From positions 1 to 20,747 of IMG/VR virus record IMGVR_UViG_2579778622_000016: 20,747 nt of DNA; one strand, written 5' to 3'. The notes beneath the pieces were generated by a model. The model was given only the letters and a program-made list of their open reading frames with translations. It had not been told where the DNA came from and made no database searches. Each line of letters opens with the position of its first letter. Positions within the stretch are counted from its first letter, which is position 1. The DNA is from a virus. Lineage: Duplodnaviria > Heunggongvirae > Uroviricota > Caudoviricetes. Below, piece after piece: positions 470-20,217 of this stretch. The position numbers and the translations under genes are program-made.

Positions 470-1873
470 TTGAGAATGCCGCGCACTGTAACACATAATC
501 CGGATAGCCCCAATAATGACGATGTTTTAGCCGCATCTGAAAAATGGGACGCCTGTAAACCCCCCTATACCAGCGCACACATGAAAATCTGTGTTGCTGC
601 CGCCAAAATCATCCTCGCTGCTTCCGGCGTGGCTCGCCGTTCCAAATACGAAAAAGAGAACTATCTCCGTATCGATTTCAGCAAAGCCGGTAAGGTTACA
701 TTTTACGCCGAGTTTCCAAAAAAGATGGGCCTCAAGGGTAAAAAGCTCGGCGAGTGGCCGGAGCTCGCTATCCAGCTGGCGCGCGAAAAAGCGCTAGGTA
801 TGGCTGACGGTGGCTTGCGGGCAGAGTCCGTACATGCAGCGCTGGAAATGTACCGGGATGACCTCAAAGCCAAAGTCGCCCGGCAGAAGCTGAGCCCGGA
901 CAGTTTCACAACCTACGGGGTGCGTATCGACCGGATTAAAGCAACGTTCGGCGAGCGTGAGGTGTTCAGCGACGTAACATACAATCGGCTGGTGGAAGTG
1001 CTGGACGAGTGGATCGCCACTCGCTCGAACAATAACGCCCTGGAGTTGTTTGCCGAGCTCCGTCGGTTCTGGAAGTTCTGCGCACCTACTCTTTGTAACG
1101 GTCGCAATGTTGCTGCCAGTCTGCCAGATGATTATGTTTCCTCCCGCGTACAGAAACCCACCCCCACACGGCTTTTTACCGATATTGAATCAATCGCCCG
1201 ACTCTGGCTCAATGTTGCTGCCTGCACCTCTGTACACCAGAAGAATGCTGTTCGCTTCATGATCATCACTGGTGTTCGTCCGATTAATGTCCATAACCTG
1301 CGCTGGGACTACGTTCACGAGGAGGCTGGTGAAATTGTTTATCCGGAAGGGGTTATCGGCATGCGAGGGGCTATGAAAACACAAAAGGCTTTCCGCCTGC
1401 CGATAACCCCTGAGATCCGGCGGATTATCGACGAGCAGAAAGCCTGGCGTGATTCAGTTCCTGAGTGCAACAGGGATTATGTATTTTTGCAGCCACGTGA
1501 TCCAATGCAGCCATTTTCAAAACGATCACTGGATAAGCTGGTGAAAACATACAGCCCGGACGGGGCTGTAAAAGGAATAAAACATGATGGGACTGTTAAA
1601 GGGAAAGACGGTGCATTTAATACGATGTGCCGTAAATTCCTTAAGAGCAATGTTATTGCCTTGATGAAGGAAAGAGGCTATTCCCGCTCAGACCGAAGGG
1701 AAATCAGCCTCCTTTGCCTTCACCACTCCAGCAAGTCAGATGACCCGATGGCAGAACATTACGACTTTTCTGATGAGATTTTACAGGAAGAGATTGCGTT
1801 GAAGCGCGAAGCTTTCGAGGCTCACGAGCGGAGCATACTTGCGCAGGTGGCATTGCTACGGCGGCGAGGTTAA
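470..1873 (+). CDS. int: Tyrosine-type site-specific integrase
   Basis: 467-aa ORF, SD AAGGA about 7 nt upstream. Tyrosine-recombinase-like C-terminal half (box-I-like VRPINVHNLRWDYV, Lys in MKTQKAFRLP, C-terminal LHH...AEHYD with candidate catalytic Tyr). Sits at the element edge next to an Xis/AlpA-like gene. Confidence 0.75.
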   Translation: MRMPRTVTHNPDSPNNDDVLAASEKWDACKPPYTSAHMKICVAAAKIILAASGVARRSKYEKENYLRIDFSKAGKVTFYAEFPKKMGLKGKKLGEWPELAIQLAREKALGMADGGLRAESVHAALEMYRDDLKAKVARQKLSPDSFTTYGVRIDRIKATFGEREVFSDVTYNRLVEVLDEWIATRSNNNALELFAELRRFWKFCAPTLCNGRNVAASLPDDYVSSRVQKPTPTRLFTDIESIARLWLNVAACTSVHQKNAVRFMIITGVRPINVHNLRWDYVHEEAGEIVYPEGVIGMRGAMKTQKAFRLPITPEIRRIIDEQKAWRDSVPECNRDYVFLQPRDPMQPFSKRSLDKLVKTYSPDGAVKGIKHDGTVKGKDGAFNTMCRKFLKSNVIALMKERGYSRSDRREISLLCLHHSSKSDDPMAEHYDFSDEILQEEIALKREAFEAHERSILAQVALLRRRG

Positions 1874-2070
1874 TACTGGCTGCGACATTTTTGAATAAAA
1901 GCGTCGATATTTCGGCGCTCATAACGAACTACTTTTGCACTGAAACGAATTGGTGCCAGGATAGCCCGATGACGATGCTTAATATTCCACTCACATAGCG
2001 TTTTCTGTGTAATACCTAACTTTTGGCATACTTCATCCGGGGTGAGTAAATCGTCGGGTTTCTCGCTCAT
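1870..2070 (-). CDS. AlpA/Xis-family small HTH DNA-binding protein (putative excisionase or regulator)
   Basis: 66-aa ORF, SD GAGAGG 6 nt upstream. LLTPDEVCQKLGITQKTLCEW pattern typical of AlpA/excisionase HTH. Start overlaps the helicase stop (ATGA); stop shares a TTAA with the int stop. Confidence 0.55.
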   Translation of the reverse strand: MSEKPDDLLTPDEVCQKLGITQKTLCEWNIKHRHRAILAPIRFSAKVVRYERRNIDAFIQKCRSQY

Positions 2071-3467
2071 GCTATACCTCTCTTTTTCATGGCATCGAGC
2101 AGGATGTCCTGCACTGTTCGTTTTGAGTTGCGCCGCTCCATCACCATTTCATCCATAGTGTCGGCAGCAATAATGTGGTGAATAAATACCGGACGATTGT
2201 GTCCGGCCTGTATCTGCCTGGTGGGGCCGATACGTTCAATAATTTGCTGATATTGCTCCAGGTCCCACCAGTGTGAGAAAAATACCAGTATATTTCCGCC
2301 GTCCTGCATGTTCAGGCCGTGGCCCGCGCTGGCTGGGTGTGCAAAGAGAACAGGAATCTTTCCGGAATTCCAGTCGCGCAGTGTCTTTGGATCCTGGTCG
2401 AGGTGACGACCGCGAGGGAATGCTTTAAGCAAGCGTTCAAGATCGTGTTTCCAGTGATAAGCAACCAGCACAGGTGCGCCAGCTGCTTCGGTCAGTATGC
2501 TGTCCAGCGCCTGCAGTTTGGTGTCATGCAGTTCTGACCAACTTCCGGTGTCGTCTGTGTATACTGCGCCACTGGCGATTTGCAGACACTTCAGTGTCTT
2601 TGCCGCGGCGTTTGGTGCTTCGATGCCTTCGCCATTCAGCTCGAGGAACATTTCCTTTTCCATTTCACGATACTGCTGACGGGCCTTCGGCGGCATATCC
2701 ACGCGGATTACGTTATGGATGGGGTCTTTGATATCGAACCAGTCGGCCGCATCCAGCGAGAGGGTTACATCGGCTAACGCTCGCTGTATTTCACCCTGTG
2801 AGTGAGCAAAAGGCTCCAGTTTAGTCCAGCTCTGTCCCGGAAACTGTATCGAGTTGAACCAGCGTGAGGTAAACGCGCCATAAGTGCGCCCGAGACGTTG
2901 CCCTTGGTCCACAAACCACGATTGTCCCCACAAATCTACCAGGCCGTTCGGTGCTGGCGTACCGGTGAGATTTATCCAGCGCCGGACATACTTATGCGCC
3001 ACTTTGCCCAGCGCCGCCGCGCGCTTACCACCACCTCGCAGCCGGAAGGATTTTAGCCGGGTGCTTTCATCTGGAATGACAGTACCGAACGGCCATCGTT
3101 CTCCCAATTCCTCAACCAGCCAGACAAGGTTATCGTAGTTGATGGTGAACACGCTCGCGTTGCTGTTCGCCAGCGCTGTAGAGCGCGCTTTGGCATTACC
3201 AACAATCGGCTGCACCTCGATATTGCGCAAATGCCCCCACTTCACTGCTTCATCCGGCCATGTGCTGGCAGCCACGCGCAGCGGCGCGAGGACCAGTACG
3301 GGGCGTGTTTCTGCCCCTGCCATAAAAAGATCTTCCAGCGCAGTGAGCGTTGCCACGGTTTTACCCATTCCCATACCTGCCCAGATGTTGCAGCGCATAA
3401 TGTCGACTTGATGATTGATGATGAGATCTTGGTAGGGACGGGGGCTGAATAGTTTAGAAGGGGTCAT
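2067..3467 (-). CDS. SNF2-family (DEAD/DEAH-box) helicase
   Basis: 466-aa ORF with Walker A GMGKT and DExx-type IPDESTRL; C-terminal helicase domain. Typical partner of VRR-NUC and family-A polymerase in phage replication modules. Confidence 0.85.
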   Translation of the reverse strand: MTPSKLFSPRPYQDLIINHQVDIMRCNIWAGMGMGKTVATLTALEDLFMAGAETRPVLVLAPLRVAASTWPDEAVKWGHLRNIEVQPIVGNAKARSTALANSNASVFTINYDNLVWLVEELGERWPFGTVIPDESTRLKSFRLRGGGKRAAALGKVAHKYVRRWINLTGTPAPNGLVDLWGQSWFVDQGQRLGRTYGAFTSRWFNSIQFPGQSWTKLEPFAHSQGEIQRALADVTLSLDAADWFDIKDPIHNVIRVDMPPKARQQYREMEKEMFLELNGEGIEAPNAAAKTLKCLQIASGAVYTDDTGSWSELHDTKLQALDSILTEAAGAPVLVAYHWKHDLERLLKAFPRGRHLDQDPKTLRDWNSGKIPVLFAHPASAGHGLNMQDGGNILVFFSHWWDLEQYQQIIERIGPTRQIQAGHNRPVFIHHIIAADTMDEMVMERRNSKRTVQDILLDAMKKRGIA

Positions 3468-3751
3468 TAAGCCCCCTCTAGGTCAACATTGGGAAGCTTA
3501 TAGTCTGGTATGGTTTCATCCAATACCCTGGCGATAAAGTCATCTTTAGGGTAATAAATTACCGCTCCGAATTCTTCGCTTAAATAGTGACTTGAAGTAG
3601 CTGCGTTAGTATCGTTATCCCACGTTACAGGAACCAGACCTGTATGATCTTGTTTCCACGCAATAATAGGGTGGACCGTGTAAAGTGAACCATCATCGTT
3701 ATAAAGCACAACCCACCAACCGGGTTGAGCCGGCATATAATTATCCATCAC
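3467..3751 (-). CDS. Hypothetical phage protein (94 aa)
   Basis: ORF with GTG (3751) / ATG (3748) start behind SD GGAGGGG; stop overlaps the helicase start (TAATG). No recognisable motif. Confidence 0.5.
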   Translation of the reverse strand: MMDNYMPAQPGWWVVLYNDDGSLYTVHPIIAWKQDHTGLVPVTWDNDTNAATSSHYLSEEFGAVIYYPKDDFIARVLDETIPDYKLPNVDLEGA

Positions 3752-3775
3752 AATATCCCCTCCAGATTTTAGCTA
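3748..3775. repeat. Copy 1 of a 28-bp direct repeat (TCACAATATCCCCTCCAGATTTT-N-GCTA) carrying an SD and GTG start
   Basis: 27 of 28 positions identical to 5366-5393 (the first 23 bp are perfect); in both copies the repeat supplies the RBS and GTG of a minus-strand gene. Confidence 0.7.
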
Positions 3776-3806
3776 GCAGGGCGCGGGGTAATCCCGCGCA
3801 ATAATG

Positions 3807-4556
3807 TCAGATTAGATCGGTGTAGTAGGTGAAGTTGCCAAACTGCGGATGTGTCCAGCGCTTGCGGTTACCTTTCGGTGGTGTCGATTCGTTTAACAGC
3901 TTTTGAGCTGCTTGTTCGATCTCCGGAAGGTTAACGAGCAATCCCCGAACGCCGGTGTCTGAACGTACTGGTATCCTGGCGAAGCCGATCAATTTCCGGC
4001 ATGTTGAATCAGATAAACCTGTTTTCCATGCTGCTTTGCTGACGGGGACATATTCACCTTCAACATTAGATAAATTCGCTGGTGCGGCTGGTTGAAAATA
4101 GCCAGTTGCATCAAGACAGGCTTTCATTGTTGCTTCTGCTACGACGCGAGCAAGCTGGACGATGCCGTCGTTGATCTGAATTTTGGGTGTGGAAGGATGG
4201 GTAACAAGCGGTTGTACTTTACCTGTTTCCAGCTCACGCCAGCGCTTAACTACTTTATACCGGTCGTGGGCGCTATAACCAGTTACAAGCGTTGTGGAAA
4301 GGTCCTGATCGAGTAGTATTTCATCAATGACTTCGCGACCATTATAGACCTTCCTTTTGACTAAAAAGTCTTTATTTTCATGATGGTACATTTCTGTACT
4401 ATGAAAACCTAACTGCTCAAGAAGTGCTTTAATATCGCGCACGACTATTTTATGTTCTTTGCCGGTAAGTTCTGCAATCTCGCGACTGCTCATCATCGGT
4501 TGCTTACCAGTGCCTGCTAGTGTTAAAGTTGTTTCGAACATTGAAGTATTCTCCAT
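3807..4556 (-). CDS. Rha-family phage regulatory protein (antirepressor-like)
   Basis: N-terminal MSSREIAELTGKEHKIVVRDIKALLEQLG matches the Rha (Phage_pRha) signature as I remember it. The first ATG (4556) lacks an SD; the ATG at 4541 (GGAG upstream) may be the true start. Confidence 0.7.
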   Translation of the reverse strand: MENTSMFETTLTLAGTGKQPMMSSREIAELTGKEHKIVVRDIKALLEQLGFHSTEMYHHENKDFLVKRKVYNGREVIDEILLDQDLSTTLVTGYSAHDRYKVVKRWRELETGKVQPLVTHPSTPKIQINDGIVQLARVVAEATMKACLDATGYFQPAAPANLSNVEGEYVPVSKAAWKTGLSDSTCRKLIGFARIPVRSDTGVRGLLVNLPEIEQAAQKLLNESTPPKGNRKRWTHPQFGNFTYYTDLI

Positions 4557-4601
4557 TTAATAAAAGATGCGCTGGTAGCTGCAACTATCAGCGCGTTTTA
4601 T

Positions 4602-4778
4602 TTATTCATCCCACGGCTTGTTTGCAGCTTCCCTTGCAGCCTGCTGCGCAAAATAAATCAATTCAAAAGCTAACTGCTCTCCTTTCTCCAGCGAACTGAG
4701 AAGCCTTGCTGTTTCCAGCATGTCCGCGATATACCCGAAAATATCTGCCTGATGTAACTGCGTGATCTGAATAGCCAT
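4602..4778 (-). CDS. Small hypothetical protein (58 aa), not in the supplied ORF track
   Basis: Translated by hand: MAIQITQLHQADIFGYIADMLETARLLSSLEKGEQLAFELIYFAQQAAREAANKPWDE. SD GAGG about 9 nt upstream; first gene leftward of the divergent promoter/operator region. Confidence 0.35.
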   Translation of the reverse strand: MAIQITQLHQADIFGYIADMLETARLLSSLEKGEQLAFELIYFAQQAAREAANKPWDE

Positions 4779-4798
4779 AGCGTTAACCTCGTTTAGTT

Positions 4799-4877
4799 CT
4801 CATTGTGAGGACTAGATTTATTAGTACTCACAATGAGGCTTGAAGTCAACATGTTTGTGAGGCATGTTGTTCTCACA
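4799..4877. promoter_or_regulatory. Divergent promoter region with two palindromic operators (TGTGAG / CTCACA half-sites)
   Basis: Perfect 11-bp inverted repeat CTCATTGTGAG (4799-4809) / CTCACAATGAG (4827-4837), and a second pair TGTGAG (4856-4861) / CTCACA (4872-4877), just upstream of the RHH gene start at 4895. Confidence 0.5.
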
Positions 4878-4894
4878 CTTTCAAGGGATCATAT

Positions 4895-5224
4895 ATGAGC
4901 AAAAGAGACGACCCGCAGTTGAGGGTACGCATACCAGAATTACTAAAAGAGGCTTTGGAGAAGAAAGCACGAGCTAATAAGAGAACACTGACCTCTGAGA
5001 TCGTTAGCAGGTTGGAATCTACTATTCTTCAGGACAAATTACTTCATACATCTAGGGGGTTTGAGGAAGCTGCTGATGAGATTCTCATACTCAGGGATCT
5101 TCTCGAGAAACTTAAGACAACGTACCATCGAGAGCATCAGGCCGAATGGGTTTATGAAAACAAATACGAGCTTATTGAGGCGATGGAAAAACTTAAGAAG
5201 TTGCTAAATCCTGAGAATGAATAG
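4895..5224 (+). CDS. Arc/Mnt-type ribbon-helix-helix repressor with C-terminal coiled-coil (Mnt-like)
   Basis: 109 aa; N-terminal RVRIPELLKEALEKKARANKRTLTSEIVSRLE is a classic Arc-like RHH pattern; C-terminal heptad-like region. SD AAGGGA upstream. Confidence 0.7.
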   Translation: MSKRDDPQLRVRIPELLKEALEKKARANKRTLTSEIVSRLESTILQDKLLHTSRGFEEAADEILILRDLLEKLKTTYHREHQAEWVYENKYELIEAMEKLKKLLNPENE

Positions 5225-5369
5225 TGGATTCATCCTCTAAACTTTTACGTAACCGCCGGGTGATTTCGGCGGTTAGTGTTCTGTCGTTTTCTCTGGAAAT
5301 TTTTTCCAGTGCGTCTTTCAAGTCTTGCGGGATGCGTACCCGCAATTGTGGGTCATCACGTTTACTCAC
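5193..5369 (-). CDS. Arc-like ribbon-helix-helix protein (58 aa), paralogue of the 4895..5224 product
   Basis: Hand translation from GTG: (M)SKRDDPQLRVRIPQDLKDALEKISRENDRTLTAEITRRLRKSLEDESTIHSQDLATS; first 14 residues identical to the plus-strand RHH. SD GGAGGGG; GTG overlaps the VRR-NUC stop (GTGA). Not in the ORF track (under 60 aa). Confidence 0.55.
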   Translation of the reverse strand: MSKRDDPQLRVRIPQDLKDALEKISRENDRTLTAEITRRLRKSLEDESTIHSQDLATS

Positions 5370-5393
5370 AATATCCCCTCCAGATTTTTGCTA
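5366..5393. repeat. Copy 2 of the 28-bp direct repeat (see 3748..3775)
   Basis: 27 of 28 positions identical to 3748-3775; lies at the VRR-NUC 3' end and supplies the SD/GTG of the Arc-like gene. Confidence 0.7.
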
Positions 5394-5635
5394 TCCAGCA
5401 CCACCACGGTAAAGCCCAGTTTTCGCAGACGTTCATGTTCGCGCAACTGGTCGGCGCGTGGTGCTTTGCCGGGTGCTTTGCATTCAACGAAAACAAGACG
5501 GCCGCCGGGTAGCAGAACAATGCGATCCGGTACCGAGCGGCGACCGGGAGATACGAACTTAAAGGCCACACCGCCAGCCTTTTTTACTTCAGCGACGAGG
5601 TGCTTTTCGATTAGGTTTTCACGTTCATAGGCCAT
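5366..5635 (-). CDS. VRR-NUC domain nuclease (PD-(D/E)xK fold)
   Basis: 89 aa; PDRIVLLPGGRLVFVECK matches the VRR-NUC D...ExK core. Confidence 0.8.
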   Translation of the reverse strand: MAYERENLIEKHLVAEVKKAGGVAFKFVSPGRRSVPDRIVLLPGGRLVFVECKAPGKAPRADQLREHERLRKLGFTVVVLDSKNLEGIL

Positions 5636-5829
5636 TAGCTTTCTCCTTTCTGCTTTTTGCGTTTCTTCATGCAGATAGCGCAGTTCTCAGGATGGTCATG
5701 CCATTCATCAATCCTGATACCTGTGAACATCCATTTTCCGCATAGTGATATGGCTTCCCCCGAATTAAAGAAATGTGCTTTTTTTGACAGAGCGGGGAAC
5801 CCCCAACCCTTATTATCGATATTAGACAT
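5635..5829 (-). CDS. Hypothetical Cys/His-containing small protein (64 aa)
   Basis: ORF coupled to the VRR-NUC start; CGKW...HDHPENCAIC suggests a small metal-binding element; basic C-terminal tail. Confidence 0.45.
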   Translation of the reverse strand: MSNIDNKGWGFPALSKKAHFFNSGEAISLCGKWMFTGIRIDEWHDHPENCAICMKKRKKQKGES

Positions 5830-5865
5830 CGTCCACCTCCTTACGCTTTTCGCGCATGTTCTGCA

Positions 5866-6000
5866 TCAGACAAAAATCAAACCGACGTTCGCTTTGGCCC
5901 AGACCTGCATCGCCCGGTCGTACCCGCCGGACTGTTCAAGGCGCAAAGCCTCCCGCACAGTCCGGTAGTAAAGTAGATTGTCCCGGTATTTAAATGACAT
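5866..6000 (-). CDS. Small hypothetical protein (44 aa), not in the ORF track
   Basis: Hand translation MSFKYRDNLLYYRTVREALRLEQSGGYDRAMQVWAKANVGLIFV; lies directly downstream of an intrinsic terminator, so its expression context is unclear. Confidence 0.3.
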   Translation of the reverse strand: MSFKYRDNLLYYRTVREALRLEQSGGYDRAMQVWAKANVGLIFV

Positions 6001-6015
6001 ATATTTCGATTCCTG

Positions 6016-6041
6016 TAAAAAGCCCCTGACTGAGCAGGGGC
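6016..6041 (-). terminator. Rho-independent terminator (minus strand) downstream of the Bro-N gene
   Basis: Stem GCCCCTG (6022-6028) / CAGGGGC (6035-6041) with a 6-nt loop; the A-run at 6016-6021 on the plus strand is a U-run on the minus-strand RNA. Confidence 0.6.
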
Positions 6042-6052
6042 GAATTGAAGGA

Positions 6053-6817
6053 TTAACGAGGTAAAGTGGGGGGAGTATATCTGCCGATGCGGTCTTCTAT
6101 GGTCGGCAGAATGCACATGCTGTCGCTGAAGCGGTCATGCAACTGGTAAACCAGTTTCGAATCCATTTTTTCGAGAGCAGGCATTAACTGCGCTCGCCAG
6201 ATTTCGTTGATGCGCCGGAAGTTGTGACAGACGGCGCGGAGATTGTTGATGAACATTTCCTTCTCTGCGTCATTGATTGCTGTCTGAGCTTTCTGAATGC
6301 GTTTCGTGCTGCCATTCCGGTAGAAGCGTTCCTGAGCAGCAACAGCCTCATCCACGGTTGGATAGCACCCTACGTAAACGCTCTTCTCTCCGTCCCATGC
6401 ATAAGCCCTGTACGGATTGTATTTGCTCCGGTGATGGTAAATCATCTTCGGCAGACATTCCCTGTGCGGCGCCAGTATCGTGGAGGACTGCGGAACAGCG
6501 GTTTCTTTCTCGATAAGGTCAAGCACCCAACGGCGGAATTCTTTTGCTACTGGCGTTGTTGCGAACATCGCTACCAGGTGGGCACCGCGGAGGGAGAAAA
6601 TGCGGCGCGAGGCCTGTAAATTCCCCAAGGTAACCATTTTGATTACCTCGGACATGCCGAGAGTGAACTCATCCGTGTTGCGGGTGTAAATGTTAGTTAC
6701 GCTGCGAGCATCAGAATATTCTAGCGCGGTAGCCAGGGTAGCCGCAGTAAACCACTGCTTGCCGTTGTGTTCGACCGTTTCGAGAATGTGGGATTTGAAG
6801 ATGAGTTGAGTACTCAT
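6053..6817 (-). CDS. Bro-N domain protein (phage antirepressor family)
   Basis: 254 aa; N-terminal FTAATLATALEY...NLQASRRIFSLRGAHLVAMFATTPVAKEFRRWVLD fits the Bro-N pattern. SD AAGGA upstream; terminator-like hairpins on both sides. Confidence 0.75.
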   Translation of the reverse strand: MSTQLIFKSHILETVEHNGKQWFTAATLATALEYSDARSVTNIYTRNTDEFTLGMSEVIKMVTLGNLQASRRIFSLRGAHLVAMFATTPVAKEFRRWVLDLIEKETAVPQSSTILAPHRECLPKMIYHHRSKYNPYRAYAWDGEKSVYVGCYPTVDEAVAAQERFYRNGSTKRIQKAQTAINDAEKEMFINNLRAVCHNFRRINEIWRAQLMPALEKMDSKLVYQLHDRFSDSMCILPTIEDRIGRYTPPTLPR

Positions 6818-6967
6818 AGTCTTATGTCCTTGCTGATTTGTTCAGATTGCCCTGTGTTCAGCAGGGCGGTCGGGTACTTGAACACCGCAGCAAGCCGGCC
6901 CGTATCCTTAGCCTTGCGGCTGTTTTTCGGTATACGCGCTACCCGACCATATCTGAAAAATGGACAT

Positions 6968-6997
6968 AAAAAAAATCCGCATGACTGACGGGTGCGG
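6968..6997 (-). terminator. Rho-independent terminator (minus strand) downstream of the DNA polymerase gene
   Basis: Stem CCGCA (6977-6981) / TGCGG (6993-6997) with an 11-nt loop; on the minus-strand RNA it is followed by U8 (plus-strand A-run 6968-6975). Confidence 0.55.
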
Positions 6998-7061
6998 TTT
7001 CCGCTTGCTGTGGTGTGTTCAGCACCATGAAGCGGAATATACCTATTGGTCATCGCGGATG

Positions 7062-14140: not shown

Positions 14141-14764
14141 TTATCTTTTGCGGCGGTAAATACGATGTTCAATCATGACCCCTACGATCTGTAAGGGGAC
14201 ATCTGCACTTCGTAGCACGGGATAGTCGGGATTCAGGGGGACCAGTTCAAAATCATCAACGCCGATACCCAACGGGCGGTATTTTTTGAAAGTGGCCTCA
14301 TACCCGTTGTTCTTTGCAACGACGAATTCGCCAGGCATGGGGCATAAATCCGGGTCAATTATTACAATATCGCCTTCCTTAAACTCCGGTTGCATACTGT
14401 CACCATCTATCCGCAGGGCGAAGCAGGACTCAGGTACGTCGGAATCCGCGAGAACGTATTCCATATTTCCATCCATGTCCGTAGCGTCTTTTGCTTCCGT
14501 TAGCGCACCGGCCTGTACGTAACTGAGGATCGGGATGCGGCGGGTACTTATTTCCGCCAGGGGCATTATATTCCTGCCATTTAAAAGCCAGTCGGGACTG
14601 CATTTCAGTGCCTTTGAAAGCTCTATGATGTTGCGGGGCTTCCGGGTCTTTCCGCTTTCAATAGTCTCAATGGATTGCTGGCTGACCCCCGCGATTGCTG
14701 CAACTTCTGTTTGTGTCATCCCGAGTTCTGTACGGCGTGCTTTAAAGCGTTCTGCAAGTGACAT
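14141..14764 (-). CDS. CI-like prophage repressor (N-terminal HTH, C-terminal S24 LexA-like peptidase)
   Basis: HTH LGMTQTEVAAIAGVSQQSIETIESG; S24 motifs GDSM (Ser) and VVAKNNGYEATFKKY (Lys). SD AGGGGG upstream of the ATG at 14764; the track's extension to 14830 lacks an RBS. Confidence 0.85.
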   Translation of the reverse strand: MSLAERFKARRTELGMTQTEVAAIAGVSQQSIETIESGKTRKPRNIIELSKALKCSPDWLLNGRNIMPLAEISTRRIPILSYVQAGALTEAKDATDMDGNMEYVLADSDVPESCFALRIDGDSMQPEFKEGDIVIIDPDLCPMPGEFVVAKNNGYEATFKKYRPLGIGVDDFELVPLNPDYPVLRSADVPLQIVGVMIEHRIYRRKR

Positions 14765-14880
14765 GGTGTACCCCCTGATTCCTGATTTTTTGCTCTCCCT
14801 TATTAATACAATTTTTGTTGTAGTTGACAAACATCATTTATTGTCGCTAAATACCACATAAATTGTAGGAGACAATAATC
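14765..14880. promoter_or_regulatory. Divergent cI / cro promoter-operator region (OR-like)
   Basis: TTGACA at 14824-14829; inverted repeat TTATTGTC (14838-14845) / GACAATAA (14871-14878); AAATACCACAT (14850-14860); ATTGT-AGGAG-ACAAT palindrome whose centre is the cro SD. Confidence 0.5.
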
Positions 14881-15090
14881 ATGACACTTGCTACCCGAGT
14901 AAAAAACCAGCGTAAGGCTCTTGGCCTGACGCAGGTTATGCTGGCAGAACGCACAGGGATTAGCCAGCAGGCCATTAACCGCATTGAAAGCGGCCTTATA
15001 TCCCGTCCCCGTTATCTGCTGGAAATAGCTGTTGCCCTGAACTGCGACCCTAACTGGCTGTTGCATGGTACTCCCGCGGATAAGACGTAA
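14881..15090 (+). CDS. Cro-like HTH (XRE-family) regulator
   Basis: 69 aa; HTH LGLTQVMLAERTGISQQAINRIESG; SD AGGAG 9 nt upstream; divergent from the CI-like gene. Confidence 0.75.
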   Translation: MTLATRVKNQRKALGLTQVMLAERTGISQQAINRIESGLISRPRYLLEIAVALNCDPNWLLHGTPADKT

Positions 15091-19061: not shown

Positions 19062-19277
19062 ATGAAATCAATGGACAAAATCTCAACTGGCATTGCCTAC
19101 GGAACATCCGCTGGTAGTGCGGGATACTGGTTTTTACAGTGGTTGGATCAGGTCAGTCCGTCACAGTGGGCTGCTATTGGTGTGCTGGGGAGTCTGGCAC
19201 TGGGCTTTCTGACTTATCTGACGAATCTGTACTTCAAGATAAAAGAGGACCGTCGCAAGGCGGCGCGGGGAGAGTAA
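19062..19277 (+). CDS. S21-type pinholin (class II holin) with dual-start motif
   Basis: 71 aa, [30 protein letters not shown]...: near-identical to my memory of phage 21 S; two in-frame starts (MKSM / MDKI); SD GGAGG upstream; two TM segments. Confidence 0.85.
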
Positions 19278-19410
19278 TTCAATGGAACATAATAATGAAA
19301 AATCCAGAGAGCACTCTGGAAACAGCAAACATTATTCCATTGCTCATTCATTCGGCGGCTTTCGTGATGTAGTCGGACAGGGTGCTGAGAGAGAACAGGA
19401 GAGTAATACA

Positions 19411-20217
19411 ATGACTCAAAACCATGAACTGGTTGTTAAAGGAACCCGAAATTTTGAGAATAAAATTGCGGTGATTTTAACCCTGCGTGACAAAAAGCGT
19501 TTTGCCTGTGAGATATTTGACTTACACATCAACCTTGAACGACAGGAAGGCGCCACTCTGGAGTTTTATGAGTCAGAGGCAATAAAACGGGCAAAGACAT
19601 TGTTCCGGGATGTTGCTGCAGGGTTATGTGAAGGGGACGAGCTGTCGCCGGAAAAGCGCCCCATAATTTTACAGGCGCACAATGTGTGGATAACCTACAA
19701 AGGAAAGCTACCGGGAAGAATTACTGGTTCTCTGAAGATGCCGCCGTCAACACTGCGGTCAGAAAAAGAGGCGTCTTGTCTGCAGTCTGAGTACTCCATT
19801 ACGGTTAAAAGTGCCGGAGAGGAAGGAAATAAACGTTATTTTATTGCGTCTGCACCTGATAAAGATCAGGAATGGGAGTGTAACCGGCCATCCTTTGTTG
19901 TATACGGAGATGGCGGGAAAATAACCATCTCAGAAAATGGGAAATTAACACCGCCATCGCACCAGCATAGTGAGGCGCTCATTGAATTTGCCATTGATTA
20001 CCTGAAGAACAATAAAAAGCAGGGGCTGATGAAGCGCATTGGTCGTTGCATGGGATATCTGCAGGTAGCAGCTGAGATTGAAATGATGGCCAGTGGTGCT
20101 GACAATGATGCAGTTGTGCTGGAGGCTCTTCTGCGTGATTTTGATAATACGCCCTTTAAGAAAGCACCTGTTGACTGGATGCAGCCGGGGATGACTTATC
20201 TGAAAGGGCGTATATAA
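19411..20217 (+). CDS. Hypothetical protein (268 aa from ATG 19411; alternative start 19282 gives 311 aa)
   Basis: Occupies the slot where an endolysin is expected but has no TM/SAR segment or lysozyme motifs. The same SD-ATG 17-mer GGAGAGTAAT(A/T)CAATG precedes both candidate starts. Confidence 0.5.
   Translation: MTQNHELVVKGTRNFENKIAVILTLRDKKRFACEIFDLHINLERQEGATLEFYESEAIKRAKTLFRDVAAGLCEGDELSPEKRPIILQAHNVWITYKGKLPGRITGSLKMPPSTLRSEKEASCLQSEYSITVKSAGEEGNKRYFIASAPDKDQEWECNRPSFVVYGDGGKITISENGKLTPPSHQHSEALIEFAIDYLKNNKKQGLMKRIGRCMGYLQVAAEIEMMASGADNDAVVLEALLRDFDNTPFKKAPVDWMQPGMTYLKGRI

What the first reader, a model, noticed from the sequence alone, without database searches (positions are those of the whole stretch)
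3748..5393. 28-bp direct repeat providing identical SD and GTG starts to two different minus-strand genes
TCACAATATCCCCTCCAGATTTT(A/T)GCTA occurs at 3748-3775 and 5366-5393, 27 of 28 positions identical. Each copy contributes the ribosome-binding site (GGAGGGG) and GTG start of a gene (the 94-aa hypothetical and the Arc-like RHH), and the second copy overlaps the 3' end of the VRR-NUC gene. A repeated translation-initiation cassette at gene junctions is a likely module-exchange or recombination joint; the segment between the copies (Rha, RHH pair) may have been acquired as a unit.
Basis: seen in the sequence. Interest (0 to 1): 0.45.

Follow-up and report, generated by a model that had tools for sequence, protein, structure and literature searches.

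The report
Duplicated gene-end marks prophage recombination joint
The 28-base repeat is the end of a nuclease gene, carrying the ribosome-binding site and start codon for whatever gene follows, and it was copied when two alternative cargo modules of an E. coli prophage were joined in tandem: a clean but ordinary example of how phage genomes are shuffled.

Summary
TCACAATATCCCCTCCAGATTTT(A/T)GCTA occurs at 3748-3775 and 5366-5393, 27/28 identical, with about 2.5e-7 such pairs expected by chance.

On the coding (minus) strand it reads TAGC(A/T)AAAATCTGGAGGGGATATTGTGA. That is the last codons of the VRR-NUC nuclease gene, a GGAGGGG Shine-Dalgarno and a GTGA start/stop overlap.

In relatives this sequence is the fixed left edge of a hypervariable cargo slot between VRR-NUC and the SNF2 helicase gene. 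At least 12 unrelated sequence classes, SNF2 itself among them when the slot is empty, begin at the same GTG. Identity is 84% upstream of it and 26% downstream.

In every Salmonella-type locus examined there is one copy, followed directly by the 93/94-aa gene. The closest E. coli relatives carry the Arc-Arc-58aa-Rha antirepressor cassette in the slot, with no 94-aa gene and no second copy.

The window lineage has both alleles in tandem. The 94-aa gene kept 18-28 nt of its native upstream sequence (the VRR-NUC tail). The joint lies in a 10-nt microhomology, TAGCWAAAAT.

Which piece arrived last is not settled; the sampled relatives favour the 94-aa patch. This is a known kind of phage mosaic junction, not a new mechanism.

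The parts
5366..5393 (-). Copy 2. This is the genuine 3' end of the VRR-NUC gene (codons S-K-N-L-E-G-I-L-stop). It contains the GGAGGGG Shine-Dalgarno and the GTGA overlap in which the Arc58 start GTG shares bases with the VRR-NUC TGA.
   Evidence: The same 4-nt overlap is annotated in RefSeq relatives. The tail is conserved in about 60 loci from E. coli, Salmonella, Edwardsiella, Mixta and Erwinia.
3748..3775 (-). Copy 1. This is a non-coding relic of the VRR-NUC tail. It supplies the SD (GGAGGGG) and the GTG/ATG start context of the 94-aa gene. Its single A-to-T difference puts a TAA in the old VRR-NUC frame.
   Evidence: It is identical in all loci of the window lineage (L006-L013, L065). 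It is absent from cassette-bearing relatives that lack the 94-aa gene.
3766..3775 (-). Crossover zone, TAGCTAAAAT. This 10-nt microhomology is shared 9/10 with the spacer after the Rha hairpin in L001-type relatives (TGGCTAAAAT) and 9/10 with the VRR-NUC tail (TAGCAAAAAT).
   Evidence: Homology to L001/L002/L003 ends at window 3766-3767. The junction sequences are listed.
3450..3765 (-). A 316-bp patch that distinguishes the window from its closest E. coli relatives. It holds 18 nt of VRR-NUC tail, the 94-aa gene and the first 6 codons of SNF2. It amounts to one complete '94-aa' slot allele.
   Evidence: L002 and L003 match window 965-3449 (97.3-97.7%) and resume at 3766/3767, with only 15-16 nt in place of the patch. 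Salmonella L020 aligns continuously across 2077-3775 at 86%.
3467..3751 (-). The 94-aa gene (93 aa if it starts at the ATG at 3748). It belongs to a small E. coli/Salmonella-group family of unknown function. Its 3' end (..DLEGA*) carries the SD GAGGGGG and a TAATG overlap for SNF2.
   Evidence: No Pfam or PHROG match. The AF2 model has pLDDT 64 and no PDB fold match. The gene is absent from 5426 complete E. coli genomes and from the phage collection.
3781..3799 (-). GC-rich hairpin GCGCGGG-ATTAC-CCCGCGC at the 3' end of the cassette. It has no T-run, so it is not a canonical terminator.
   Evidence: It is not flagged by the terminator scan. The Salmonella version of the cassette has a stem followed by TTATTTT at the same place.
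3776..5365 (-). The segment between the copies: an Arc / Arc(Mnt-like) / 58-aa / Rha antirepressor-type cassette of 1590 bp. Its GC content is 44.8%, against 54% in the flanking anchor genes.
3807..4556 (-). Rha-family protein; the matching PHROG families are annotated as anti-repressor.
   Evidence: Pfam Phage_pRha 2.8e-10. PHROG anti-repressor families, best E-value 3.9e-18.
4602..4778 (-). 58-aa ORF of unknown function. It is conserved with the cassette in all contexts.
   Evidence: No family match.
4779..4894 (.). Divergent intergenic region with operator-like inverted repeats (CTCATTGTGAGGACTA / TAGTACTCACAATGAG).
   Evidence: No consensus sigma-70 promoter was found here by the scan.
4895..5224 (+). 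109-aa Arc-family (Mnt-like) ribbon-helix-helix protein. It converges on Arc58, with a 32-nt overlap.
   Evidence: Pfam Arc 3e-09. It is 60% identical to Arc58, and the first 14 residues are identical.
5193..5369 (-). 58-aa Arc-family protein, the first gene of the cassette. It starts at the GTG of copy 2.
   Evidence: Pfam Arc 1.4e-09. The start is supported by N-terminal identity to Arc109 and by RefSeq annotation.
5366..5635 (-). VRR-NUC / PD-(D/E)XK nuclease gene (89 aa), the conserved left anchor of the cargo slot.
   Evidence: RefSeq names. PHROG endonuclease 1.9e-30. No Pfam hit at E<=0.01.
2067..3467 (-). SNF2-family helicase gene, the conserved right anchor of the slot. Each slot allele brings its own first 6-10 SNF2 codons, up to the PRPYQ motif.

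Best explanation
The 28-mer is the 3' end of the VRR-NUC nuclease gene. In this family of Enterobacterales temperate phages it also serves as the translation-initiation region of the next gene: a GGAGGGG Shine-Dalgarno, 5 nt of spacer, and a GTG overlapping the TGA stop. It is the fixed left edge of a hypervariable cargo slot between VRR-NUC and the SNF2 helicase gene.

The window's lineage carries two alternative slot alleles in tandem. The first is the Arc/Arc/58aa/Rha antirepressor-type cassette. The second is the 94-aa gene. The 94-aa allele came with 18-28 nt of its native upstream sequence, the VRR-NUC tail, and that is copy 1.

The joint was made by an out-of-register recombination. It paired the spacer just after the cassette's hairpin (..GCTAAAAT) with the VRR-NUC tail of a genome holding the 94-aa allele (..GCAAAAAT). 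The other crossover, or the remainder of the exchange, lay in homologous SNF2 sequence from about codon 7 onward. Recombinants that keep an SD for the displaced downstream gene are the ones that survive, so the duplicated piece is exactly the SD/start region.

Today, copy 2 is coding sequence plus a coupling signal for Arc58. Copy 1 is a non-coding ribosome-binding site for the 94-aa gene.

Shown: the anatomy, the single-copy and no-copy relatives, and the breakpoints. Inferred: the polarity of the event, the recombination pathway, and that copy 1 is used as the RBS.
For: 1. Salmonella-type loci (L014-L021, L073-L078) have one copy..GATAGCAAAAATCTGGAGGGGATATTGTGA|TGGATAA.., joining VRR-NUC directly to the 93/94-aa gene. 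The window's two alignments to L020 overlap by exactly the 28 bp.

2. E. coli relatives L001-L003 and 14 IMG/VR contigs carry the cassette, then ..CCCTACTGGCTAAAATACTATG-SNF2. They have no 94-aa gene and no second copy. L002 and L003 are 97% identical to the window on both sides of a 316-bp patch at 3450-3765.

3. Homology to those relatives ends inside copy 1, at 3766. The last 10 nt, TAGCTAAAAT, match both parents 9/10.

4. At least 12 unrelated downstream sequence classes, counting SNF2 itself in the empty-slot state, begin at the same GTG. They include two Arc types, 76-, 77-, 168- and 199-aa ORFs, small membrane ORFs and the 94-aa family. Among 11 classes compared, the 60 nt upstream are 84% identical and the 60 nt downstream 26%. 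The slot ranges from 3 to 1902 nt.

5. Each allele carries its own SNF2 leader up to PRPYQ, which defines the right edge of the slot.

6. Two copies occur only in loci that carry the E. coli 94-aa allele (L006-L013, L065).

7. The same pattern recurs at a second site. Where the cassette sits after SNF2 in Salmonella-type phages, it is followed by a relic of the SNF2 tail (GAGAGG + 6 nt + ATGA). That relic matches the tail variant of whichever gene follows.

8. Cargo is about 10 points lower in GC than the anchor genes.
Against: No E. coli genome with VRR-NUC followed directly by the E. coli 94-aa allele (the predicted second parent) was found. The nearest native-context alleles are only 86% identical in DNA.

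The polarity, 94-aa patch added versus cassette added, cannot be decided from the sequences.

The 10-nt microhomology is short and could be fortuitous.

The nucleotide-exact reuse of one GTG by about a dozen different downstream sequences is explained here by selection plus exchange through the conserved flanks. That explanation is assumed, not demonstrated.

Use of copy 1 as an RBS has not been tested. The predicted RNA fold partly pairs the SD.
Confidence: 0.8

Rival explanations
1. Opposite polarity. An E. coli prophage with VRR-NUC > 94-aa > SNF2, as in Salmonella, received the Arc/Rha cassette as a block. The homologous crossover was in or upstream of VRR-NUC, and the illegitimate joint was at TAGCWAAAAT. 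The repeat is then the duplicated target junction.
For: Relative to L020/L021, the insert is bounded exactly by the 28-mer. The cassette is clearly mobile: it is absent, or lies after SNF2, in other relatives. The resulting sequence is identical to that of the favoured model.
Against: Every close E. coli relative sampled (97% flanks) has the cassette but not the 94-aa gene. No E. coli prophage with the 94-aa gene and without the cassette was seen in 24 contigs read, in 5426 complete genomes, or in a metagenome scan for the junction. The foreign stretch relative to the nearest relatives is the 316-bp patch, not the cassette.
Confidence: 0.25
2. The segment between the copies is a transposable or site-specifically integrating element, and the 28-mer is its target-site duplication or attachment site.
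For: Direct repeats flank a discrete 1.59-kb insert that occupies different positions in different phages.
Against: The insert encodes only two Arc-family proteins, a 58-aa ORF and a Rha protein. It has no transposase or recombinase. The insert ends carry no terminal inverted repeats. The same cassette at the same site in L001-L003 has no second copy. At its other site the flanking duplication is 16 nt and imperfect.
Confidence: 0.03
3. The 28-mer is a functional repeated motif kept at both places by selection. It could be an operator for the Arc proteins, or a start-associated sequence that boosts or regulates translation, as proposed for the SAS of Cluster K mycobacteriophages.
For: Both copies sit immediately upstream of start codons. 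ATTGTGAG, the operator half-site of the cassette, also occurs at the junction of copy 2 and Arc58. SAS motifs occupy the RBS position upstream of unrelated genes (PMC3203893).
Against: There are only two copies in 20.7 kb, even allowing 3 mismatches. The tail is equally conserved in relatives with no Arc gene or with an empty slot. Copy 1 exists only where the 94-aa gene has been displaced from VRR-NUC. Copy 1 reads ATTGTGAT, not the half-site.
Confidence: 0.05
4. Chance similarity, or independent convergence of two SD/start regions.
For: None beyond the fact that SD regions are purine-rich.
Against: About 2.5e-7 such pairs are expected, and no shuffle gave a match. The identity extends well beyond the SD and start codon.
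Confidence: 0.01

Closest known systems
Mosaic module junctions at gene boundaries in temperate phages. These include the lambdoid 'novel joints' and boundary/linker sequences, and the debate between illegitimate recombination plus selection and recombination at short or diverged homology (summarised in PMC3945230; the classical lambdoid and mycobacteriophage work is from my own knowledge).
   Same: Similarity to relatives changes abruptly and exactly at a start/stop overlap. Alternative unrelated genes sit between conserved flanking genes. There is a short microhomology at the one joint that can be reconstructed.
   Different: Here the joint left a visible 28-bp duplication, because the displaced gene kept the tail of its former upstream neighbour. 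The recombination pathway was not identified. Among the window's ORFs scanned against Pfam, the recombination-type functions found were a DUF2800/PD-(D/E)XK nuclease and an Enc34-type ssDNA-binding protein, with no recognised Rad52-like recombinase.
Morons, meaning accessory units inserted between two genes that are adjacent in related phages (from my own knowledge).
   Same: The cassette lies between genes that are adjacent in Salmonella-type relatives. Its GC is about 10 points lower than its neighbours'. It ends in a hairpin, which is a canonical terminator in the Salmonella version.
   Different: Its first gene, Arc58, has no promoter of its own in evidence and is translationally coupled to VRR-NUC. 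No consensus promoter was detected in the cassette's intergenic region. In E. coli the hairpin lacks a T-run.
P22 immI region, mnt-arc-ant (from my own knowledge).
   Same: Two Arc-family ribbon-helix-helix proteins, one longer and transcribed in the opposite direction. An operator-like inverted repeat lies between divergent genes. The downstream gene belongs to families annotated as antirepressor.
   Different: The gene order differs, with Arc58 outside the divergent unit and converging on Arc109. A 58-aa ORF of unknown function precedes Rha. The effector is Rha-family rather than P22 Ant. No function was tested.
Start-Associated Sequences (SAS) of Cluster K mycobacteriophages (PMC3203893).
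   Same: A conserved asymmetric sequence that contains the SD, lies a few nt upstream of start codons, and is associated with genes of different families.
   Different: SAS is a 13-bp motif; 93 sites were identified in the study, each genome carrying numbered sites up to at least #19. Here there are two copies, and they are explained by descent from one gene end.
Variable accessory-gene hotspots between conserved phage genes, such as the P2/P4 defence hotspots (from my own knowledge).
   Same: Conserved anchor genes flank a slot that holds many unrelated cargo genes. Neighbouring slots in relatives hold TIR-domain, Bro-N and AntA genes.
   Different: The slot here is small (0-1.9 kb) and lies inside a translationally coupled early operon. 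No cargo gene in it was identified as a defence gene.

Membership tests
Phage mosaic (module-exchange) junction | Similarity to related genomes changes abruptly at the site | tested here: met
   L002/L003 homology stops at 3449 and resumes at 3766. L020 homology stops at 3775 and resumes at 5366. Across cargo classes identity falls from 84% to 26% at GTGA.
Phage mosaic (module-exchange) junction | The breakpoint coincides with a gene boundary | tested here: met
   The left edge is the GTGA start/stop overlap of VRR-NUC and the next gene. The right edge is at codons 6-10 of SNF2.
Phage mosaic (module-exchange) junction | Alternative, unrelated sequences occupy the same position in relatives | tested here: met
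   At least 12 downstream sequence classes, including SNF2 in the empty state.
Moron | Inserted between two genes that are adjacent in related phages | tested here: met
   VRR-NUC and the 93/94-aa gene are adjacent in L014-L021 and L073-L078.
Moron | Own promoter and own terminator | tested here: inconclusive
   There is no consensus sigma-70 site in 4779-4894, and the hairpin at 3781-3799 has no T-run. The Salmonella version has a stem followed by TTATTTT.
Moron | Base composition differs from the neighbours | tested here: met
   The cassette is 44.8% GC, against 54% for VRR-NUC, SNF2 and the polymerase gene.
Transposon-type insertion with target-site duplication | Element-encoded transposase or recombinase | tested here: not met
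   Pfam and PHROG find only Arc, Arc and Rha, plus one ORF with no match.
Transposon-type insertion with target-site duplication | Terminal inverted repeats, and the same duplication length at every insertion | tested here: not met
   No inverted repeat of at least 9 nt between the insert ends. There is no duplication in L001-L003 and a 16-nt imperfect one at the SNF2 site.
Start-associated sequence (SAS)-like dispersed motif | Many copies per genome, upstream of many genes | tested here: not met
   Two matches in the 20.7-kb window with up to 3 mismatches. The rest of the prophage is outside the window.
Integron-like cassette array | A shared recombination site (attC-like) at the distal end of each cassette, and an adjacent dedicated integrase | tested here: not met
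   The sequences upstream of SNF2 share no motif across cargo classes. The only integrase is the prophage tyrosine integrase at 470-1873.
P22 immI-like antirepressor module (applies to the segment between the copies) | Arc/Mnt-type RHH repressors with operators, next to an antirepressor gene | tested here: met
   Two Arc-family proteins, Rha/anti-repressor profile hits, and a 16-nt inverted repeat. This rests on annotation and sequence only.
P22 immI-like antirepressor module (applies to the segment between the copies) | The antirepressor inactivates the prophage's main repressor | not testable with these tools
   A CI-like S24/HTH repressor is present at 14144-14830. No interaction can be tested.

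The most novel reading that the evidence does not exclude
The VRR-NUC tail with its GTGA overlap is a dedicated capture site, not just a conserved flank. On this reading, a phage-encoded activity, plausibly involving the flanking structure-specific nuclease and the SNF2 annealing helicase or the DUF2800 nuclease/SSB pair, inserts promoterless cargo genes at one exact nucleotide so that they are expressed by translational coupling. That would be a translation-level analogue of an integron attI site. The tandem arrangement in the window would be a two-cassette array with the site regenerated between the cassettes.
Probability: 0.05. Interest if true: 0.75.

Novelty: new member of a known kind. 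Interest (0 to 1): 0.3.

Why it matters
The locus is an unusually legible phage recombination joint. Both parental arrangements still exist in relatives, the breakpoints can be read to the nucleotide, and the scar shows what selection demands of such joints: the displaced gene must keep a ribosome-binding site.

The VRR-NUC/SNF2 slot has a dozen downstream sequence classes that all begin at one GTG. That makes it a compact natural system for asking whether phage mosaic boundaries arise from random joining plus selection or from recombination at short SD/start microhomologies.

For annotation, it warns that the 28 nt upstream of the 94-aa gene are a gene-end relic, not a regulatory element. It also shows that the slot is a place to look for accessory cargo.

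It does not reveal a new mechanism.

Tried and rejected
1. The 94-aa gene was searched in 5426 complete E. coli genomes (blastn, distant mode) and in 50,697 phage records (tblastn). Neither search found it.

2. The metagenome collection was scanned for the predicted uninterrupted junction GCAAAAATCTGGAGGRRATATTGTGATGGATAA. There were no hits. The predicted E. coli parent, or a cassette-deletion product, was therefore not found.

3. Function of the 94-aa protein. There was no Pfam or PHROG hit. The AlphaFold model is beta-rich but has only pLDDT 64. The best Foldseek PDB match has E=0.36, which is not meaningful.

4. The terminator and promoter scan did not flag the hairpin at 3781-3799 or any promoter in 4779-4894.

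5. No terminal inverted repeats were found at the ends of the insert, which rejects a transposon reading.

6. The operator reading of the 28-mer was considered because ATTGTGAG recurs. It was rejected as the main explanation because the tail is conserved in relatives that have no Arc genes.

7. Rfam found nothing in 3400-5700. The only hit in the window is elsewhere.
Full report
**Observation**

The window carries TCACAATATCCCCTCCAGATTTTAGCTA at 3748-3775 and TCACAATATCCCCTCCAGATTTTTGCTA at 5366-5393, identical at 27 of 28 positions. No dinucleotide-preserving shuffle of the window produced any match, even allowing 3 mismatches. About 2.5e-7 such pairs are expected by chance in 20.7 kb. All genes concerned lie on the minus strand, where the repeat reads TAGC(A/T)AAAATCTGGAGGGGATATTGTGA.

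Copy 2 is the end of the 89-aa VRR-NUC/PD-(D/E)XK nuclease ORF (5366-5635..DSKNLEGIL*). Its TGA overlaps the GTG of a 58-aa Arc-family ORF (5193-5369). RefSeq annotates the same 4-nt overlap in relatives. Copy 1 lies in no ORF. It follows the Rha stop codon (3807) and a GC hairpin (3781-3799), and it abuts the 94-aa ORF (3467-3751). In copy 1 the GTG is followed immediately by an ATG, so either codon could be the start.

**Context**

The window is an E. coli prophage next to yfhL. Its early leftward operon runs from a CI-like repressor region through a DUF2800 nuclease, an Enc34-type SSB, Nmad5, a family-A DNA polymerase, small genes, VRR-NUC, the region of interest, an SNF2 helicase and an HTH_17 protein. 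The integrase is encoded on the opposite strand.

Between the two copies (3776-5365) lie four genes and an intergenic region:
- Arc58.
- A convergent 109-aa Arc-family protein whose first 14 residues are identical to those of Arc58.
- A divergent intergenic region with a 16-nt operator-like inverted repeat.
- A 58-aa ORF of unknown function.
- A Rha-family protein that matches PHROG families annotated as anti-repressor.

By anatomy this resembles the P22 immI (mnt-arc-ant) region. That comparison rests on my own knowledge, and no function was tested.

**Relatives with one copy**

The 94-aa protein belongs to a tiny family found in E. coli and Salmonella-group genomes. In every non-E. coli member examined (L014-L021, L073-L078), the gene sits directly after the 89-aa VRR-NUC gene and directly before SNF2. 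The junction there reads ..GATAGCAAAAATCTGGAGGGGATATTGTGA|TGGATAA.., a single copy of the 28-mer.

BLAST of the window against L020 gives two alignments: window 2077-3775 with L020 6672-4977 (86%), and window 5366-5635 with L020 5004-4735 (89%). The two alignments overlap in L020 by exactly the 28 bp. Relative to this arrangement, the 1590 bp between the copies are a block insertion flanked by a duplication of the junction.

**Relatives with the cassette but no second copy**

The closest E. coli relatives (L001-L003, and many IMG/VR contigs) have VRR-NUC, Arc, Arc, the 58-aa ORF, Rha and the hairpin, then ..CCCTACTGGCTAAAATACTATG, which is the SNF2 start. They have no 94-aa gene and no second 28-mer.

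L002 and L003 match the window at 97.3-97.7% over 965-3449 and again from 3766/3767 onward. A 316-bp patch (3450-3765) in the window replaces 15-16 nt in them. The patch consists of 18 nt of VRR-NUC tail (CTGGAGGGGATATTGTGA), the 94-aa gene and the first six SNF2 codons.

Homology to these relatives ends inside copy 1. The 10 nt TAGCTAAAAT (3775-3766) match both the relatives' spacer (TGGCTAAAAT) and the true VRR-NUC tail (TAGCAAAAAT) at 9 of 10 positions. This is what a microhomology joint looks like. The one mismatch between the two copies lies in this zone.

**The slot**

The 23-nt core of the tail was scanned through IMG/VR, GTDB species genomes and JGI metagenomes. It retrieved 51 further loci from E. 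coli-like phages and from Edwardsiella, Mixta and Erwinia. After ..ATATTGTGA, at least 12 unrelated sequence classes begin at the same GTG:
- Two Arc types.
- ORFs of 76, 77, 168 and 199 aa.
- Small membrane ORFs.
- The 94-aa family.
- Short non-coding continuations.
- In six loci, SNF2 itself (VSSVFTPRPYQ..), which is the empty slot.

These are listed. Among 11 class representatives compared, the 60 nt upstream are 84% identical and the 60 nt downstream 26%, which is random. The 23-nt pattern was required for retrieval, but the other 37 upstream nt were free to vary.

The distance from VRR-NUC to SNF2 ranges from 3 to 1902 nt. Each allele carries its own version of the first 6-10 SNF2 codons, up to the conserved PRPYQ. 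Slot alleles therefore run from the GTGA overlap to about codon 8 of SNF2, and the conserved anchors on either side can act as arms for homologous exchange. The anchors are about 54% GC, while the 94-aa gene and the cassette are 43-45%.

Two copies of the tail occur only in loci that carry the E. coli 94-aa allele (L006-L013 and metagenome contig L065).

**A second instance of the same pattern**

In several Salmonella-type phages the homologous Arc/Arc/58aa/Rha cassette sits after SNF2 instead (L014, L020, L021, L074, L077). There the cassette's terminator is followed by GAGAGG + 6 nt + ATGA, a relic of the SNF2 tail. The relic matches whichever tail variant goes with the gene that follows. 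It is GAGAGGTATAGCATGA before the AlpA gene, as in the empty sites of L016 and L075. It is GAGAGGCCTGA(A/G)ATGA before the PyocinActivator-family gene, as in the empty site of L015.

So in this family, a cassette inserted into a translationally coupled junction is followed by a copy of the upstream gene's last 16-28 nt. That copy carries the SD and start of the displaced gene.

**Interpretation**

The repeat is a recombination scar that is also functional. The VRR-NUC tail serves as the universal translation-initiation region of the slot. The window lineage stacked two slot alleles, and the second allele kept its native initiation region.

A single out-of-register crossover would suffice. It would pair GCTAAAAT after the cassette hairpin in one genome with GCAAAAAT in the VRR-NUC tail of a genome holding the 94-aa allele. 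The alternative is that joint plus a homologous crossover in SNF2.

On the sampled relatives, parsimony favours addition of the 316-bp patch to a cassette-bearing backbone. The reverse history, in which the cassette was added to a backbone carrying the 94-aa gene, gives the same sequence and cannot be excluded. The predicted E. coli parent was not found.

I attribute the exact reuse of one GTG by many unrelated genes to selection for translational coupling, plus repeated exchange through the conserved flanks. This is inference. The literature is still divided between illegitimate joining plus selection and recombinase-driven exchange at short or diverged homology (PMC3945230).

One side effect is worth noting. 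In L002-type phages SNF2 has no obvious SD (..GCTAAAATACTATG). In the window it regains a GAGGGGG SD and a TAATG overlap inside the end of the 94-aa gene.

**Alternatives rejected**

- A transposon-like target duplication is not supported. The insert has no recombinase and no terminal inverted repeats, and the duplication differs or is absent at other sites.
- A dispersed functional motif, such as an operator or a sequence like the SAS of Cluster K mycobacteriophages (PMC3203893), is unlikely. There are only two copies, and the tail is equally conserved in relatives without Arc genes. The Arc operator half-site ATTGTGAG does recur at the junction of copy 2 and Arc58.
- An integron-like capture site is not supported, because the cargo classes share no distal site. 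I keep it as the most novel reading that the evidence does not exclude, at about 5%.

**Dead ends**

The function of the 94-aa protein remains unknown: no family match, an AF2 model at pLDDT 64, and no fold match.

**Verdict**

The feature is a well-resolved example of a known phenomenon, phage mosaic junctions at gene boundaries. It is of modest interest in itself. Its main use is as a tractable natural system, and as a pointer to a cargo slot between VRR-NUC and SNF2.

Noticed in passing
window 6860-6948 (-): Rfam sRNA-Xcc1 (RF02221) match at 71 bits, against a gathering score of 53. It lies in the non-coding stretch between the Bro-N gene and the DNA polymerase gene. The stretch 6822-7041 is 91% conserved in Salmonella locus L015, even though the neighbouring cargo differs.
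   Followed up: no
window 19269-19299 and 19398-19428: A second repeated translation-start region: GGAGAGTAAT(T/A)CAATG occurs twice, 129 nt apart. Both ATGs are in frame within the 311-aa ORF 19282-20217. The Pfam DUF1327 domain begins at residue 44, which is the second ATG. This could mean two alternative starts or a duplicated leader.
   Followed up: partly
window 4799-4837, 4895-5224, 5193-5369: Arc58 and Arc109 share an identical 14-residue N-terminus, MSKRDDPQLRVRIP, which is the DNA-reading strand of RHH proteins. They probably compete for the same operator. A 16-nt inverted repeat, CTCATTGTGAGGACTA/TAGTACTCACAATGAG, lies between the divergent genes. Its half-site ATTGTGAG recurs at 5365-5372, at the Arc58 start.
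   Followed up: partly
L014, L020, L021, L074, L077 (Salmonella-type loci), SNF2 end and Rha end: The same Arc/Rha cassette sits after SNF2. It is followed by a 16-nt relic of the SNF2 tail (GAGAGG + 6 nt + ATGA). The relic's spacer matches the variant that belongs to the downstream gene, whether AlpA-type or PyocinActivator-type.
   Followed up: yes
window 4792-5352 compared with L009/L013: Within the cassette, the Arc pair plus operator region is itself exchanged for a different Arc allele (MKKSDEHLQF..) in otherwise 98-99% identical E. coli loci. The left breakpoint again falls at the VRR-NUC tail.
   Followed up: partly
window 5635-7061 and relatives L001-L005, L006-L013: Other slots in the same operon are also hypervariable. 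Upstream of VRR-NUC the relatives carry a 64-aa ORF, DUF4406 or a 160-aa ORF. Between the ANR-family gene and the DNA polymerase they carry a TIR-domain protein, where the window has Bro-N and other relatives have AntA.
   Followed up: no
L001-L003 and relatives, SNF2 start; window 3465-3485: In cassette-only relatives the SNF2 start (..GCTAAAATACTATG) has no recognisable Shine-Dalgarno. In the window, SNF2 is preceded by GAGGGGG and a TAATG stop/start overlap inside the end of the 94-aa gene.
   Followed up: no
window 14652-14701 and 14944-14993: A 50-nt inverted repeat, 72% complementary, spans the 5' region of the CI-like repressor gene (14144-14830) and the divergent region next to it.
   Followed up: no
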